From: Rhizodiscina lignyota
Taxonomy: Eukaryota
DNA: 64,000 nt
NCBI GenBank assembly: GCA_010015805.1
Contig: ML978122.1
Coordinates: forward strand, 1,398,453 to 1,462,452
Direction of reading: 5' to 3'
Program-made: the position numbers and the translations under genes
Notes under the pieces: generated by a model
Seen by the model: the letters and a program-made list of their open reading frames with translations, nothing else
Database searches by the model: none
Told to the model about the DNA's origin: nothing
Shown here: positions 55,174 through 64,000 of the stretch, piece by piece
Layout: each line of letters opens with the position of its first letter
How positions within the stretch are numbered: the stretch's first letter is position 1

Positions 55174-56200
55174 TTATATCCATACTTTATCATTGACTCG
55201 GTTCTTCTCGAGATAGCTACGAACTTGATCCCAGTCTCGACATATATGCTTCGCATCCCAGCCATCGCTTCCTGGGAGGGTCTTATCTGGGAACGAGGTC
55301 TGCTTGCCCTCAAGCGTTGTGTCTCCACAGCACACAATGCTTTGCCGTAGATATTCAAAGCAGTGACTGCTATGCCAGTCTGCAGAGTCATCATGGGCTC
55401 GAGAACCAGTGTTGTTCGACACAAGGGACGAGAACAATTCCTCGAGTTTGTACTAAGCACATGGATTAGTCATCAGTAGAATGGGCTACTCGGCTAGTCG
55501 AACATCGCAGATTCTCGGGATGTGTTGACCGGGCACGAACTTACCAAGCAGTGAAGCTGGTGTGTGACGGACGTCGTGAAGACCGGGACGTCGTACTCTG
55601 GTAGCGGCGTTGGTAGGTTATCATAATCCTCCGGGTTGTCGACTCGCACATATCCAAGACCCTCTATTGTGTCTTGTCTCAGCACTCTCACTGTTTTGCA
55701 ACCCAAGCACACAGGAAACTCACTCGGTACCAAGTCCAGCCATTTCTGTCGCACGCGGTTCGTGAACCAGTCAGCTGGATCGTCCGGAGTAAAGGACGAA
55801 TCGTATGCAAATGTCCTAATCTGCCGTCGGACTACACGCGTCCTTGGAATAAGTACTTGCTATGACGGAACGGGCCTAAATTGTAGAGGGCATCGTTGGG
55901 CGACGTACTGGTTGGTGCAAATCCTGTGATATCTCCAGAGCTCTCTAACCGCCCTCGACCGTCGCCATATCTTGATGTCACAAGAAAGGCTAAGATGGCG
56001 AGGAGGAGAACAGTATTCAGGGCATGCCTGAGTGACAAAATGATCGAGCAGACTTGTCGGGTCCTCTTCGAGCCAGTTGGTTTCTTCTGTAGTCTATGGA
56101 GTTGATCTTCTTCATCTCCACTCCAGCTGCTCCTTGTCATGAGGGGCTTGCTATCGTCGCCGTTGAAGGCCAAAGTTTCATGGCTTCCGTCTGGAGTCAT
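55174..56200 (-). CDS. DUF3328/UstYa-family oxidase #1 (4 exons)
   Basis: N-terminal TM anchor; W-LVP-KGLGYV; SVTHQLHCL; WHSSHCFEYLRQSIVCCGDTTLEG; GWDAKHICRDW. Confidence 0.93.
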
Positions 56201-56807
56201 CTCTTCGGTGAAGGCTAGTAATAATGGAACGGGTTACGATGTAAAGACTCGGCATTCGTTCACCTAAGCAGCGAGCAACCAAGGATACACAATCCTAATA
56301 CCAAGACAATTGGTAGTGTCGGCATTTACGAGGGAGACCCGCAAGATGATTGAGCCACATGTGCTTCTCCCGCGCGAGAGGAGAAGGTGACATGAACCAT
56401 GTTTTTTCCTGCAAGGTGCTTAACGTGCATTTAGTTCTCACGTACATTGTAGATCTGGCTGGGCGTGGGTACAACTCCGGCTGCGCATCTAACGTGGGGT
56501 TGGACGAGGGTAGGGGAGGTTGGAAGGGGTTGGATGGGGTCTGAAAAGACTTGGCAATGCAGTTGGGAAGTCTACTCCGTATATGGTAGATGCTTTACTG
56601 TATATGGTATCCATGTCAGCAACCCATGCCGGTGATCTGACTCGCACCCGCAACCAGCTCATCTGCTTGGCAAGAGGCGAGTAGACACAGCTTGCAAGAC
56701 CGACGGGCGAATGATACTCTTGTCCGTTGCCACAGGGCCTCTGTGACCACTTCTATGGTAGATCTTATCAAGTTTCGGGCATATGTACATTTGTAATTCC
56801 CCCAGCG

Positions 56808-57650
56808 TCAGCGGCGGTGAGAGTCATCCGGAAAGCCGCATCTATCAAACCCTACAGCCAATTTCGTAATGTTTGAGGGAATGGAATGCTCGGTCAAGTA
56901 CCCTGCGCAATGCACCGAGTGTCCGTACGAAAACAGTGACTGCACAATGGGCTTGCCGCTCGTCCACGCCTTCATCTGCATCTCCCATAGGTACGCGCAG
57001 TGCGCATAGTGAAAATCCAGCCGTACCACCGCGGCCGCGTGCTCTCCGCGTCTGAACTCCTCGTCGGGAATTTCGCTTTCGAAGCTGATGTCGCGGAACC
57101 ACTGGTATTGGCCTTTTGAAAGGTACCTCTCCATCAGTTCTGTGTCGCGGCAGTCTTCGTGTAGCCATACAGAGAGCATGGAATCGAAGTGGCATCCTTT
57201 GGAACGGGCTTGTTCGGCATTGGAACCACAGTCTTTCCAGCTTGAGAACATTTCCGAATTTGCCTTATCGGATTCAAATTCTGGTTCATCGGTGGAATTA
57301 CTGTGGCCCTGAGGAGAACCAATTGGCGGCCTTGAGTCGTCCAAATTTGATTCTACCGCGCTGGTCGGTGTCGTTGACTCATGACTTGAAGTCGAGGTAT
57401 GTCCGAGGAAGCAATATCCAACAAATGCGAGAAGAATTGCGACCGAAGCAAGAGCAATGATGCTAGCGAAAAGCTTCCGCCATTGTTGGGCCTTTTCGAA
57501 TTTTTCATCGAACCCATTCTCGATATCCTCCTTTTCCTGCTCGTGAAGTAACTGCTGACCAGGTTCACCGTCCGGGCTAATTTGGTGGTAAGAGAGATTC
57601 AGTCCGCGCAAATTCCCCTTCATAGGAGAGAAAAGATTCAAGATGGCCAT
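56808..57650 (-). CDS. Divergent twin-HxxHC membrane-anchored protein (DUF3328-like), intronless
   Basis: TM segment FASIIALASVAILLAFVGYCFL, S/T-rich stalk, CGSNAEQARSKGCHFD...W..EDC, then HYAHC and HSVHC. An alternative upstream in-frame ATG exists at 57698. Confidence 0.8.
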   Translation of the reverse strand: MAILNLFSPMKGNLRGLNLSYHQISPDGEPGQQLLHEQEKEDIENGFDEKFEKAQQWRKLFASIIALASVAILLAFVGYCFLGHTSTSSHESTTPTSAVESNLDDSRPPIGSPQGHSNSTDEPEFESDKANSEMFSSWKDCGSNAEQARSKGCHFDSMLSVWLHEDCRDTELMERYLSKGQYQWFRDISFESEIPDEEFRRGEHAAAVVRLDFHYAHCAYLWEMQMKAWTSGKPIVQSLFSYGHSVHCAGYLTEHSIPSNITKLAVGFDRCGFPDDSHRR

Positions 57651-58231
57651 ATTGGCATAATAATGAATGTGATGTATTCTCGTGAGGCTTCTGGGCATTC
57701 CAATTGTATTGGAACTTGGAATCTGGAATTATATCGAAACCACAGAAAACAAGATGGATCGACTGTTGGAATAGACAATGAGATATCGTAATATCTATTA
57801 TCAATGCGGAGCTTTGAATACCATAGTTCCGTGACCTACTAGGATGAGAGCATGTTTATCATCCTATACAAAGCAAGAGTTCCAGGGTAGCAGTGGGGAG
57901 GTGGATGTAGAGAAAGACAAGGGGGGATGCGGGAGAAATTGGGAGGGAGGCGATTACCAAAAATCTTAGAGGGGGTTAGAATTTAGGACCCAAACTTTCA
58001 CCTATCTTAATTCGTGGTATCAAGCATTATTAGAAAGATCTTTGACAAATAAATTTAAATCATGGGGGCCAGAAAGTCTCTTCAAGCAGTTACGTTAAAT
58101 GTATATTGAATTTGGTCGCATATTGGACTTCAGCGTGTACTGAACTATCGATAATTCTAATTGAGAGTCGCGCGCCATTTGCTCAACGAATAGGCAATGA
58201 CAACCTTTTACACTCTATTTTCTATCTTCCA

Positions 58232-62207: not shown

Positions 62208-63135
62208 CTAGTGGTGGCCATCGTGATGCCCTGGAAGTGATCCGGCGCCGACGCGTTCATTCGTGCGATGCTCCTCTGCCCAGGCGAACAGGCTATCATA
62301 ATCTCTGCAGATGTGGGTTCCATCCCATCCAGTCGTAGATCGCCCCGTGGGAACATCCGCGTTAGCGGCGGTCGTGTCTAAGGCCGGATCCGCCGAGCAC
62401 TTGATCGCTTGTCTCAGAAATTCGGTACAATGATAGGTGTGCCAAACTTCCTGATCGGGCACCTGCGACGAATTCTCCATGGCCCTGCCGAAAGACTGCT
62501 GTATCATGTACTGAACGCATGTTCTGGTCAGCCGATCCTGGACTTGGTTGTCCCGCTTCGCCACTTACCAAGCAATGAAGCTGATGGAAAACCGAGACAA
62601 CGTAGATGTCCTCGGACCCATCTTTCCGGCCGGTTGGGACATTCACAAATCCTCGGCCCCCTTGCTTTGCTATCAGCTGTTTGTCACATCGTGGGGCATA
62701 ACGCGATTGTCTCCTTACTAGGCATGTCTGCTTCCCATACAGCTTCCACTTCCGCTGTAATTTCAGTGACAGTTACAGCCTCAAATTTCTTGGCCACTAG
62801 AGGATCTAAATGTAGCACTTCATTAGATACGTAGCTCCTTGGAATATTCAAATGGTACACTTACAGTCAGGTGCCAGGAGAAGGTTCTCAGGATTAAGGC
62901 TTTGCGAAAGTGAAGGCGATGACAGTGGCAGCTGTACAGCAACTTTGATAAGAGGGAAAAGTAGAAGACCCAGGAGAATTACACAACAAGCAGTGAGAAT
63001 TCTGATTTGTCGGCAGAGCTTCAAAACAAGTCGATTCTCATCGTGTGGGAAGTCCTCAGTGGAGTCGCCGCTCACCGGGCTGTAGGATTCTTTCCACAAA
63101 TGAGAAAATGGGTTTGACCGAACAGCAGGATACAT
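62208..63135 (-). CDS. DUF3328/UstYa-family oxidase #4 (4 exons)
   Basis: ATG 63135 (MYPAVRS), TM anchor; GRGFV; SVFHQLHCL; WHTYHCTEFLRQAIKCSADPALD; GWDGTHICRDY; His-rich tail GHHDGHH. Confidence 0.92.
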
Positions 63136-63729
63136 TTTCAGAGACGTGACGATGAAGAAACTTGACAATGTTCAGGTATGAAAGATGCGGACTTGTTGAC
63201 AGAAAGAGAGTATCGTTTATAGAATCCTAGACAGAGCTCTGACATGTTTTTATAACGTCAAGCTCAACTCTAGGGGTATGGTAAGGAACATCCCCCTCTT
63301 AAAATTGGCCACAACTCCTCCGTCTGTGTCCCACGCGAGACCTGGCAATCACCGTTGCAAGGTATCCATACAATGATACCGGATTCACCGTCGACGTCCG
63401 ATGTATGTTGGAACCAGGGTTCACCACTCTATCTCACCGCCAACCTGTCTGAATGCTACGCATAGGCACTGCATCGAGGCACTATACCTCTTCTCGCAAG
63501 ATCATCCCACGGTCGTCCACACTGGCCGCCGTTCAATGTAATTGTACGATGGGTTGGACAATCCGTCGACTAATGGGACCCGCACCGGTATTGTTTGCCA
63601 TTCCGATTCTGATGTATAAAGAGGTCTAGTTGTCGGCCGTTCCCATTGTGCTATCCAGCTTCGTTCAAGGAATATCTTCATCCCAGAGTGTCTCAGCAAT
63701 CGTTTCATCTCTTCTCAATATCTGCCGCA
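63136..63729. promoter_or_regulatory. Probable bidirectional promoter between DUF3328 #4 and the precursor gene
   Basis: 594-bp divergent intergenic region. TATAAA on + at 63615-63620 and on - at 63249-63254, each about 110 bp before the respective ATG. Confidence 0.55.
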
Positions 63730-64000
63730 ATGAAGTTCTCCGGTGCCGTCGCCCTCGTGGCGCTCCTGCAAATGGCCATCGCTGCTCCCACCTCACCACT
63801 GCCGGCTGCCATTGAAGAGAAGCGACAGAGTCCCGACTTGGGTACCTACGTCTACTTCAAGCGTGAGGCTGAGGCTTCCGCTGAAGAGAAGCGCCAAAGC
63901 CCGGACCTAGGAACCTACGTCTACTTCAAGCGCGAGGCTGAGGCCGAAGAGAAACGCCAGAGCCCGGACCTTGGTACTTACGTCTACTTCAAGCGTGATG
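63730..64000 (+). CDS. Secreted Kex2-processed repeat protein; putative RiPP (dikaritin) precursor, 3'-truncated by the window end
   Basis: Direct translation: MKFSGAVALVALLQMAIAAPTSPLPAAIEEKR-QSPDLGTYVYF-KREAEASAEEKR-QSPDLGTYVYF-KREAEAEEKR-QSPDLGTYVYF-KRD... This is a signal peptide plus three KR-flanked cores, with no stop inside the window. Confidence 0.93.
   Translation, partial: MKFSGAVALVALLQMAIAAPTSPLPAAIEEKRQSPDLGTYVYFKREAEASAEEKRQSPDLGTYVYFKREAEAEEKRQSPDLGTYVYFKRD
63814..63996 (+). repeat. Tandem coding repeat (units of 69 and 63 bp) encoding EEKR-QSPDLGTYVYF-KR
   Basis: Cores at 63826-63858, 63895-63927 and 63958-63990. Confidence 0.95.

What the first reader, a model, noticed from the sequence alone, without database searches (positions are those of the whole stretch)
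55174..64000. Candidate undescribed fungal RiPP (dikaritin) cluster: five HxxHC oxidase genes plus a KR-repeat precursor
Seen: five consecutive minus-strand genes each encode a TM-anchored protein with two HxxHC motifs, and sit head-to-head with a signal-peptide protein made of KR-delimited repeats. Known: a Kex2-repeat precursor next to DUF3328/UstYa oxidases is the defining layout of the ustiloxin, phomopsin, asperipin-2a and victorin pathways. Inference: this is a biosynthetic gene cluster for an oxidatively cross-linked cyclic peptide. Five oxidases suggest several distinct oxidative steps. The cluster probably continues past the window end (transporter, peptidase, regulator).
Basis: partly seen in the sequence, partly recalled or inferred. 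Interest (0 to 1): 0.93.

Follow-up and report, generated by a model that had tools for sequence, protein, structure and literature searches.

The report
Fungal dikaritin-type peptide gene cluster
Five membrane-anchored, copper-oxidase-like genes sit next to a gene for a secreted protein built from repeats of one 11-residue peptide; this is the well-known layout of fungal "dikaritin" cyclic-peptide pathways, so the cluster is real and its product uncharacterised, but the kind is common.

Summary
Window 55174-63135 (minus strand) carries five intact genes. Each encodes an N-terminal disordered region, one transmembrane helix and two HxxHC motifs. Gene 5 is head-to-head with a plus-strand gene (ATG 63730). 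That gene encodes a signal peptide followed by KR-delimited repeats of QSPDLGTYVYF.

Four of the five genes match Pfam UstYa/DUF3328 above threshold. Gene 2 does not. It belongs to a large Ascomycota family without a Pfam model. That family keeps both motifs invariant and aligns to UstYa only over the motif hairpin.

The core peptide is under purifying selection: five DNA copies differ at up to 11 of 33 bases with no amino-acid change. A metagenome contig from another fungus keeps the same core head-to-head with a gene-5 orthologue. Thozetella carries a variant core.

My best reading is a dikaritin-type RiPP cluster. The chemistry is inferred.

No paper or KEP survey supplement I could search holds the core. 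KEP-plus-DUF3328 loci number in the thousands, and phomopsin already has five DUF3328 genes. I rate it a new member of a known kind, of moderate interest.

The parts
55174..56200 (-). G1: UstYa/DUF3328 oxidase gene, 4 exons (56200-55909, 55831-55724, 55663-55545, 55452-55174), 265 aa. Motifs HQLHC and HSSHC.
   Evidence: Gene model. The last exon matches PF11807 at E 1.9e-14, 54.5 bits against a cut-off of 25.
56808..57650 (-). G2: single-exon gene, 280 aa, with a TM helix and the motifs HYAHC and HSVHC. It belongs to a UstYa-like family that has no Pfam model.
   Evidence: No Pfam hit, even at E<=1. Identical to database gene call P0001. The family has 1247 representative clusters at E<=1e-3 with invariant H and C residues. 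hhalign to the window's UstYa genes gives 78.6-89.3% probability over the motif hairpin. In the AlphaFold2 model the C-terminal domain has pLDDT about 98.
58232..59488 (-). G3: UstYa/DUF3328 oxidase gene, 5 exons (59488-59239, 59123-58992, 58919-58789, 58688-58589, 58464-58232), 281 aa. Motifs HDLHC and HIGHC; the second is formed across an intron.
   Evidence: Three exon pieces match PF11807 at E 9.1e-19, 1.7e-6 and 4.4e-7.
60008..61140 (-). G4: UstYa/DUF3328 oxidase gene, 6 exons (61140-60888, 60821-60660, 60610-60526, 60472-60442, 60384-60300, 60240-60008), 282 aa. Motifs HSIHC and HLDHC; the second is formed across an intron.
   Evidence: The last exon matches PF11807 at E 2.5e-15. Two donors (GTGAAT, GTTCGT) are non-consensus, so this model is the least certain.
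62208..63135 (-). G5: UstYa/DUF3328 oxidase gene, 4 exons (63135-62865, 62805-62719, 62669-62569, 62510-62208), 253 aa. Motifs HQLHC and HTYHC.
   Evidence: The last exon matches PF11807 at E 5e-13. Exon 1 has a 47% identical orthologue next to the precursor homologue on L001.
63136..63729 (.). Divergent intergenic region between G5 and the precursor gene. TATAAAG at 63615-63621, about 110 bases upstream of the precursor ATG.
   Evidence: Sequence read. L001 has a TATA-like run at a similar distance upstream of its ATG. The alignment shows little other conservation.
63730..64000 (+). Precursor gene (Kex2-processed repeat protein type), truncated by the window end. It encodes a signal-like N-terminus, then three copies of the core QSPDLGTYVYF (63826-63858, 63895-63927, 63958-63990), each bounded by dibasic sites and acidic EAEA-type spacers.
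   Evidence: A Logan contig continues about 126 bases past the window with more repeat-like sequence. Homologues P0152 and P0153 are shown.

Best explanation
This is a dikaritin-type (ustiloxin-class) fungal RiPP biosynthetic gene cluster.

Proposed pathway:
1. The plus-strand gene encodes a secreted Kex2-processed repeat protein with at least 3 copies of the 11-residue core QSPDLGTYVYF, and probably 5 or more.
2. The precursor enters the ER and Golgi through its signal peptide.
3. There it meets the lumen-facing catalytic domains of five single-pass membrane proteins (G1-G5). Each carries the HxxHC(x)nHxxHC site that in DUF3328 enzymes binds two copper ions and uses O2 to attack C(sp3)-H bonds.
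4. These enzymes oxidatively tailor the Tyr-Val-Tyr-Phe end of each core. The most likely reaction is one or more Tyr-O to beta-carbon ether macrocycles. Tyr8 to residue 10 has the same i/i+2 spacing as in ustiloxin and phomopsin. Hydroxylation or desaturation steps are also possible.
5. Kex2 cuts at the dibasic sites, a carboxypeptidase removes the trailing basic residues, the acidic spacer is discarded, and the N-terminal Gln probably cyclises to pyroglutamate.

Shown here: the genes, motifs and topology features; Pfam membership of four genes; the repeat architecture; purifying selection on the core; conserved precursor/G5 adjacency in a second fungus.

Inferred: that the oxidases act on this precursor; which residues are linked; the order of steps; the final product.
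For: - Pfam UstYa (PF11807) hits are above the gathering score on exon pieces of G1, G3, G4 and G5. Six of the 19 pieces scanned score above 25 bits and a seventh is sub-threshold.
- All five proteins have two HxxHC motifs and one N-terminal hydrophobic helix. The motif clustering is far above shuffles.
- In G1, G3, G4 and G5 a phase-0 intron follows directly after the 'HCL' of the first motif. This supports both the gene models and an old paralogy. Pairwise identities are only 22-35%.
- The precursor has a signal-like N-terminus and three exact cores bounded by KR/EEKR. A contig runs on with about two more units.
- Five core copies (3 in the window, 2 on L001) are identical in protein while differing at 4-11 of 33 bases, all synonymous.
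- L001 is a 1409-base metagenome contig from a different fungus. It holds the precursor homologue head-to-head with a G5 exon-1 orthologue (44/94 identical, E 3e-24), with the exon ending at the same place and phase.
- A Thozetella protein has four copies of a variant core keeping Q1, S2, P3, D4, G6, Y8, Y10 and F11.
- DUF3328 enzymes are membrane-anchored, dimeric, binuclear-copper, O2-dependent enzymes. AprY, the asperipin cyclase, is reported to be the same (PMC12435403, main text read).
- DUF3328 genes peak at the position next to KEP genes. Tyr is enriched in cores that have DUF3328 neighbours (PMC7329392 passages).
- Ustiloxin and phomopsin are cyclised between Tyr and the residue two positions on (PMC7329392).
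Against: - No product, expression or co-expression data exist. No RNA run was available.
- The window part of the cluster holds no tyrosinase, methyltransferase, transporter, peptidase or regulator. The right flank is unseen.
- Ustiloxin and phomopsin cyclisation also needs a tyrosinase (PMC7329392), and none is seen here. Asperipin-2a needs none (PMC6514808).
- The gene models are hand-built. Three donors are non-consensus (GTACTG in G3; GTGAAT and GTTCGT in G4) and one G3 intron is 124 bases.
- The spliced proteins could not be given to the family or structure tools. Pfam evidence therefore comes from exon pieces only.
- G2 is not a Pfam UstYa member.
- Only two precursor homologues were found. 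The window's own precursor did not appear among database proteins, so it may be unannotated.
- DUF3328 enzymes also tailor non-ribosomal peptides and polyketides (PMC12048977 passage).
Confidence: 0.78

Rival explanations
1. The HxxHC oxidases tailor a different substrate, such as a non-ribosomal peptide or polyketide made by genes beyond the window end. The repeat protein is then an unrelated neighbour.
For: DUF3328 enzymes act in NRPS and PKS pathways (cyclochlorotine, astins, atpenin): PMC12048977 passage and PMC12435403. The right flank of the cluster is unseen.
Against: The precursor and G5 are divergent neighbours, and that adjacency is kept in a second fungus. The core is Tyr-rich, as in DUF3328-linked KEPs (PMC7329392). 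No NRPS or PKS was seen among the ORFs scanned in the 55 kb to the left (21 ORFs chosen from the 50 of 150 aa or more).
Confidence: 0.08
2. The repeat protein gives an unmodified linear secreted peptide, a pheromone-like or signalling KEP. The neighbouring oxidases do not touch it.
For: The KR-EAEA spacer architecture is that of yeast alpha-factor-type precursors (PMC9233826 passage; the EAEA detail is recalled). Most KEPs (78%) have no DUF3328 neighbour (PMC7329392).
Against: In the same survey, KEPs annotated as mating factors or pheromones almost never had DUF3328 neighbours. Here four UstYa genes and one UstYa-like gene lie within 8 kb, one of them sharing the promoter region. That adjacency is conserved in L001.
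Confidence: 0.08
3. The locus is a silent or decaying cluster with no product.
For: No expression data could be obtained. The precursor was not found among the database's predicted proteins.
Against: All six reading frames are intact. The core evolves only synonymously, both within the array and between fungi. G2 keeps every invariant residue of its family.
Confidence: 0.05

Closest known systems
Phomopsin cluster (phomA plus five DUF3328 genes phomYa-e, tyrosinase phomQ, methyltransferase phomM)
   Same: A signal-peptide repeat precursor accompanied by five DUF3328-type genes. The core begins Tyr-Val-X, with the Tyr and the residue two positions on as the cross-link partners (PMC7329392 passage; PMC10880069 passage).
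   Different: The phomopsin core is YVIP(ID); here it is an 11-residue QSPDLGTYVYF. The window holds no tyrosinase or methyltransferase. One of the five genes (G2) is not a Pfam DUF3328 member. No sequence comparison with the PhomY proteins was possible, because no reference sequences were available to the tools.
Asperipin-2a cluster (aprA, aprY, aprT, aprR) of Aspergillus flavus
   Same: The core is rich in aromatic residues (FYYTGY). Ether links run between Tyr side chains and beta-carbons and are made by a DUF3328 enzyme without a tyrosinase (PMC6514808 passage). AprY is reported as copper- and O2-dependent (PMC12435403).
   Different: Asperipin has one DUF3328 gene, a reductase and a transporter. 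Here there are four UstYa genes plus one UstYa-like gene, and no reductase or transporter has been seen so far.
Ustiloxin cluster (ustA, ustYa, ustYb, ustQ and tailoring genes)
   Same: A Kex2-type repeat precursor (16 x YAIG) with a signal peptide, and two DUF3328 oxidases needed for Tyr-Ile cyclisation (PMC6514808; PMC7329392).
   Different: The core is different and longer. None of the many ust tailoring genes (P450, FMO, PLP enzyme, methyltransferase) is in the window.
CctR, the biochemically characterised DUF3328 hydroxylase
   Same: It has an N-terminal disordered region, one TM helix and a luminal domain. Two helices each carry HxxHC, form the dimer interface and bind two copper ions (PMC12435403). 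G2's model has the motifs on helices 212-231 and 242-254. Its predicted homodimer interface is exactly those helices.
   Different: CctR acts on a non-ribosomal peptide. G2 does not match PF11807, and its luminal domain ahead of the motifs (CG..EAR..GC.FD...W.P..C) has no detectable counterpart in the window's UstYa proteins.
Kex2-processed repeat proteins (KEPs), including yeast alpha-factor precursors
   Same: A signal peptide, tandem identical peptides, dibasic cleavage sites and acidic spacers (PMC7329392).
   Different: Pheromone-type KEPs are linear and lack DUF3328 neighbours. This one is flanked by five HxxHC genes.

Membership tests
Dikaritin BGC (Ding et al. criteria as quoted in PMC12048977) | Precursor with an N-terminal leader or signal and repeated core/recognition motifs | tested here: met
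   A signal-like N-terminus and three exact KR-bounded cores. More repeat sequence lies beyond the window.
Dikaritin BGC (Ding et al. criteria) | Multiple DUF3328 proteins | tested here: met
   G1, G3, G4 and G5 match PF11807 above the gathering score.
Dikaritin BGC (Ding et al. criteria) | Tyrosinase | tested here: inconclusive
   None among the ORFs scanned in 1-64000. The right flank is not in the window. Functional dikaritin clusters without one exist (asperipin-2a).
Dikaritin BGC (Ding et al. criteria) | Methyltransferase | tested here: inconclusive
   None among the ORFs scanned. The right flank is unseen.
Dikaritin BGC (Ding et al. criteria) | Transporter or peptidase in the cluster | tested here: inconclusive
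   None adjacent. An aspartyl protease (970-2049) and an MFS fragment (38978-39571) lie more than 15 kb away, beyond housekeeping genes. The right flank is unseen.
Dikaritin (2021 redefinition as quoted in PMC12048977) | DUF3328 protein with two HxxHC motifs as the class-defining enzyme | tested here: met
Dikaritin (as a compound class) | Side-chain cross-linked cyclic peptide product | not testable with these tools
   This needs mass spectrometry or NMR of the product.
Kex2-processed repeat protein (KEP) | Secretion signal plus tandem repeats separated by dibasic (KR) sites | tested here: met
   Read directly from the translation. Tandem Repeats Finder period 69, 2.8 copies. No signal-peptide predictor was available; the signal is judged from the hydrophobic N-terminus.
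Pfam UstYa / DUF3328 (PF11807), for gene G2 | Match to the family profile at or above the gathering score | tested here: not met
   G2 has no UstYa hit even at E<=1. Of 126 members of its family, 15 give weak hits, best E 0.0026.
DUF3328 superfamily (as characterised for CctR), for gene G2 | HxxHC(x)nHxxHC motif on two adjacent helices of a luminal domain behind one TM helix | tested here: met
   H214 is nearly invariant (90% or more). H217, C218, H244, H247 and C248 are invariant in 126 sequences. Helices 212-231 and 242-254 are modelled at pLDDT about 98, with a TM helix at 48-83. hhalign places both motifs in register with UstYa, at 78.6% and 89.3% probability.
DUF3328 superfamily, for gene G2 | Homodimer through the motif-bearing helices | tested here: inconclusive
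   Prediction only. The score is 0.56 against a best control of 0.00. The three runs agree in at least 81% of their contacts, and the partner pLDDT is at least 84. The interface residues are 215-231 and 240-253. The mark was reached by 21 of 30 proteins solved as pairs of one chain and 0 of 23 solved as single chains; on eukaryotes it was 17 of 29 and 0 of 30.
DUF3328 superfamily, all five genes | Binuclear copper, O2-dependent catalysis | not testable with these tools
   This needs metal analysis, EPR and activity assays as done for CctR (PMC12435403).

The most novel reading that the evidence does not exclude
G2 represents an unrecognised second branch of the binuclear-copper DUF3328-like oxidases. 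The branch is large (over a thousand 50%-identity clusters) and invisible to PF11807. Surveys that define fungal RiPP clusters by that profile would therefore miss it. Here it works with four classical UstYa enzymes to build a new, multiply cross-linked 11-residue dikaritin: pyroGlu-SPDLGTYVYF with Tyr-derived ether rings. That product is conserved in at least three ascomycete lineages.
Probability: 0.35. Interest if true: 0.55.

Novelty: new member of a known kind. Interest (0 to 1): 0.38.

Why it matters
Dikaritins include potent antimitotic mycotoxins (ustiloxins, phomopsins). DUF3328 enzymes were only recently shown to be a new class of copper oxidases.

This locus is a compact and unusually clean test case. 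It has one precursor with a strictly conserved 11-residue core and five divergent HxxHC enzymes, with no other tailoring genes in sight. Subsets could be co-expressed to assign individual oxidative steps.

The locus also flags a large HxxHC family without a Pfam model (G2 type). If it is active, it would widen the search space for fungal RiPP and copper-oxidase genome mining.

Against that, KEP-plus-DUF3328 loci are already known by the thousand and most are uncharacterised. This is one more lead rather than a surprise.

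Tried and rejected
- **Whole genome.** None is held for this window, so the contig could not be extended. The only look beyond the end is a Logan contig that runs about 126 bases further and stops inside the repeats.
- **RNA evidence.** No RNA holder is listed. One run, probably the DNA source, holds the stretch.
- **Longer precursor homologues.** A search over 159-2000 aa found none.
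- **Shared promoter words.** I compared the five upstream regions. No 7- to 10-mer was shared above the shuffle level.
- **Circular permutation of G2.** One 15-residue BLAST match hinted that G2's pre-motif region equals the UstYa C-terminal Cys-rich region. Profile comparison gave nothing (probability 0.1).
- **Solved structures.** Foldseek of the G2 model against the PDB gave no match at E<=0.001. Sequence searches of the PDB with the G2 family profile and with a G3 exon gave nothing meaningful.
- **Extra genes in the gaps.** Eleven intergenic ORFs had no Pfam family.
- **Literature.** Searches for the core and variant strings gave 0 relevant papers. Searches of the held supplement files of two KEP surveys gave 0 occurrences; those files may be incomplete. 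The asperigimycin paper I recalled is not in the library, which holds only two unrelated mentions.
- **Earlier findings of this scan.** Nothing on this genome or sequence. The word search returned only unrelated bacterial and archaeal repeat peptides.
- **Naming G2 relatives.** All named ones are 'hypothetical protein', from Hymenoscyphus, Claussenomyces and Phlyctema.

Full report
**What is in the sequence**

A stop-to-stop ORF list for 53000-64000 under the standard code showed a run of minus-strand fragments carrying HxxHC motifs. It also showed a plus-strand frame at 63613-63999 that reads off the window end.

I built intron-exon models by enumerating GT..AG introns that keep the frames open and assembled them.

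| Gene | Coordinates | Exons | Length |
|---|---|---|---|
| G1 | 56200-55174 | 4 | 265 aa |
| G2 | 57650-56808 | 1 | 280 aa |
| G3 | 59488-58232 | 5 | 281 aa |
| G4 | 61140-60008 | 6 | 282 aa |
| G5 | 63135-62208 | 4 | 253 aa |

None has an internal stop. Each protein has exactly two HxxHC motifs, 29-37 residues apart, and one hydrophobic 19-residue segment near residues 44-82. G2's start and end agree letter for letter with a database gene call on a 3.3-Mb contig (P0001).

In G1, G3, G4 and G5 a phase-0 intron follows directly after the 'HCL' of the first motif. In G3 and G4 a second intron splits the second motif. This shared intron pattern supports the models. The low pairwise identities are G1/G5 35%, G3/G4 31.5% and the rest 22-29%. 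Together they show that the four genes are old paralogues, not recent duplicates.

The weakest points of the models are the GTACTG donor and 124-base intron in G3, and the GTGAAT and GTTCGT donors in G4.

**More than chance**

A six-frame scan of the unspliced window finds 11 HxxHC motifs. Eight lie on the minus strand between 55374 and 62586. Thirty shuffles of the whole window gave a mean of 3.8 and a maximum of 10 over all 64 kb and six frames. Two more motifs appear only after splicing.

**Family assignment**

I scanned 19 translated pieces against Pfam. Six matched UstYa (PF11807) above its 25-bit gathering score, and a seventh matched below it.

| Gene | Best UstYa hit(s) (E-value) |
|---|---|
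| G1 | 1.9e-14 |
| G3 | 9.1e-19, 1.7e-6, 4.4e-7 |
| G4 | 2.5e-15 |
| G5 | 5e-13, plus a sub-threshold 0.0054 |
| G2 | none |

So four of the five genes are UstYa/DUF3328 members by Pfam, and G2 has no family at all. Because joined sequences may not be typed into the tools, this rests on exon pieces. Full-length profile coverage and structure prediction of G1, G3, G4 and G5 were not done.

**G2**

An exhaustive HMMER search of 1.84 billion representatives found 1247 proteins at E<=1e-3, 444 at <=1e-10 and 21 at <=1e-30. The matches lie almost entirely over residues about 136-275.

I aligned 126 of the 150 listed proteins. The 24 dropped were mostly fragments under 200 aa or proteins over 300 aa, chosen by eye. 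In the alignment C141, G142, A148, C153, W162, C167, H217, C218, H244, H247 and C248 are invariant, and H214 and C271 nearly so. Both HxxHC motifs are therefore the core of the family.

Scanned one by one against Pfam at E<=1, 15 of the 126 gave weak UstYa hits (best E 0.0026). None reached threshold, and G2 itself gave none.

Profile-profile comparison used only a thin, four-sequence alignment of the window's spliced UstYa proteins. It gave 78.6% probability (E 1.7e-5, 48 columns) with both motifs in register, and 89.3% (E 2.1e-6) for the motif region alone. The region ahead of the motifs gave nothing.

The protein atlas lists related Ascomycota clusters with no common Pfam family. A UstYa-bearing cluster appears only at rank 18, with a score of 0.84.

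AlphaFold2 with the 126-sequence alignment gave mean pLDDT 77.9. The model has a disordered N-terminus, a TM helix at 48-83, a disordered linker and a C-terminal domain at about 98. The motifs sit on helices 212-231 and 242-254.

The model has no solved relative by fold or by sequence.

A homodimer prediction of residues 125-280 scored 0.56 against a best control of 0.00. The three runs agreed in at least 81% of contacts, and the partner pLDDT was at least 84. The mark was reached by 21 of 30 proteins solved as pairs of one chain and 0 of 23 solved as single chains; on eukaryotes the figures were 17 of 29 and 0 of 30. The confident interface is residues 215-231 and 240-253, that is, the two motif helices. 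This is a model's confidence, not a measurement.

It matches the architecture published for the DUF3328 hydroxylase CctR. That enzyme has a cytosolic disordered N-terminus, one TM helix and a luminal domain. Its dimer is held by a four-helix coiled coil carrying HxxHC(x)nHxxHC, which binds two copper ions per monomer, and it depends on O2 and a reductant (PMC12435403, main text read).

I therefore read G2 as working like a DUF3328 oxidase but not as a member of PF11807. Named relatives are all 'hypothetical protein', from Hymenoscyphus, Claussenomyces and Phlyctema. That, the Thozetella hit and the atlas taxa place the window in a filamentous ascomycete. I did not try to name it.

**The precursor**

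From ATG 63730 the frame encodes a hydrophobic signal-like N-terminus ending AIA/AP, then EEKR. Three exact copies of QSPDLGTYVYF follow, each followed by KR and an acidic EAEA(SA)EE spacer that ends in another KR. The tandem period is 69. The double dibasic bracketing means Kex2 plus a carboxypeptidase would release exactly the 11-mer.

A Logan contig of the one run that holds this DNA is near-identical and may be its source. It runs 126 bases past the window and stops. Those bases resemble 63880-63998, with 20 differences and a 6-base insertion, which amounts to about two more units. The array therefore probably has at least five cores.

**Homologues of the precursor**

A 'near'-length search found 2 proteins among 522 candidates.
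- P0152 is a 102-aa hypothetical protein of Thozetella sp. PMI_491 with four copies of QSPDDGQYIYF.
- P0153 is 68 aa, with two copies of the identical QSPDLGTYVYF.

Across the three proteins Q1, S2, P3, D4, G6, Y8, Y10 and F11 of the core are invariant.

A scan of metagenome contigs matched 225 pattern stretches, of which 1 encoded a relative. That is L001, 1409 bases, which encodes P0153. On its other strand, head-to-head with the precursor, lies an orthologue of G5 exon 1 (44/94 identical, E 3e-24). The exon ends after the same LLLAP[D/E] with a GTATGT donor in the same phase. The intergenic DNA is otherwise poorly conserved, so L001 comes from a different fungus.

The five core copies (three in the window, two on L001) are identical in protein but differ at 4-11 of 33 bases, with up to 9 of 11 codons changed. 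This is clear purifying selection on the peptide itself.

**Surroundings**

To the left of G1 lies a DEAH-box splicing helicase (50526-54389), a housekeeping gene. Beyond it are ordinary genes: a short-chain dehydrogenase, a ferric reductase, a ubiquitin hydrolase, a Git3-type receptor and a Vps15-like kinase. The cluster's left edge is therefore about 55100.

No tyrosinase, methyltransferase, peptidase, transporter or regulator lies between 54400 and 64000. Eleven intergenic ORFs there have no Pfam family. The five upstream regions share no word above the shuffle level.

**How it most likely works**

The signal peptide takes the precursor into the secretory pathway. The five single-pass enzymes present their copper sites on the luminal side of the same compartments; CctR localises to Golgi, endosome and vacuole membranes (PMC12435403).

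The conserved Tyr-[Val/Ile]-Tyr-Phe end of the core has the same Tyr-x-residue spacing as YAIG/YVIG (ustiloxins) and YVIP (phomopsins). Those are cyclised between Tyr and the residue two positions on (PMC7329392 passage). It is also aromatic-rich like FYYTGY of asperipin-2a, whose two Tyr-O to beta-carbon ethers are made by one DUF3328 enzyme without a tyrosinase (PMC6514808 passage).

I therefore propose one or more Tyr-derived ether macrocycles plus further C-H oxidations. In phomopsin biosynthesis three of the five DUF3328 enzymes make dehydro-residues (PMC10880069 passage). Kex2 and carboxypeptidase processing would follow, with pyroglutamate formation at Gln1. All of this chemistry is inference. 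Expected masses are given.

**Comparison and novelty**

By the gene-level definitions quoted in PMC12048977 the locus qualifies as a dikaritin cluster. It has a repeat precursor and multiple DUF3328 genes with double HxxHC motifs. The tyrosinase, methyltransferase and transporter/peptidase criteria are undecided, because the right flank is missing.

The kind is common. A survey of 1461 fungal genomes found 7878 KEPs. Of these, 1758 had DUF3328 genes nearby, 1.7 on average, most often at the adjacent position. The survey also notes two, five and one DUF3328 genes in the ustiloxin, phomopsin and asperipin pathways (PMC7329392 passages).

The core and its variant do not occur in any paper of the searchable library. 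Five strings gave 0 papers. Five more gave 17 papers, all hits to one 6-letter string; the 10 listed are on unrelated subjects. They also do not occur in the held supplement files of two KEP surveys. Those files may be incomplete. MIBiG, subscription-journal papers and bioRxiv supplements were not searchable.

I therefore call this a new member of a known kind. The one feature that goes beyond that is G2, a member of a large double-HxxHC family without a Pfam model, sitting inside a RiPP cluster.

**Verdict**

- Confidence that this is a dikaritin-type RiPP cluster acting on the adjacent precursor: 0.78.
- Interest: 0.38.

Noticed in passing
window 55545, 58789, 60442, 62569 (last exon bases before the introns): All four UstYa genes (G1, G3, G4, G5) have a phase-0 intron immediately after the 'HCL' of the first HxxHC motif. 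G3 and G4 also share an intron inside the second motif. The intron position is conserved among paralogues that are only 22-35% identical.
   Followed up: partly
window 56808-57650 and proteins P0003-P0151: G2's family is large: 1247 representative clusters at E<=1e-3. Its double HxxHC motifs and four cysteines are invariant or nearly so. It has no Pfam model, and every named member seen is 'hypothetical protein'. It may be a branch of the DUF3328 superfamily that the profile misses.
   Followed up: partly
L001 1-1409: A metagenome contig from another fungus carries a two-copy version of the precursor ending exactly at the last core residue. It lies head-to-head with a G5 orthologue, and a TATA-like run sits about 115 bases upstream of its ATG, as in the window.
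   Followed up: yes
window 8107-9855 (-): An ORF matches the T6SS Tle1-like phospholipase catalytic domain (PF09994, E 4.3e-33). This family name comes from bacteria, and it appears here in a fungal window.
   Followed up: no
window 3-869 (+): An ORF running in from the window start matches DUF7065 and DUF7064 (E 6.5e-10 and 1.5e-30). An aspartyl protease gene lies next to it at 970-2049 (-).
   Followed up: no
window 55000-60000: GC content dips to 0.43-0.46 over 57500-59500, inside the cluster. The housekeeping genes to the left are at 0.50-0.61.
   Followed up: no
window 61141-62207: The gap between G4 and G5 is unusually long, about 1.07 kb. Its ORFs have no family match. No gene could be assigned to it.
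   Followed up: partly
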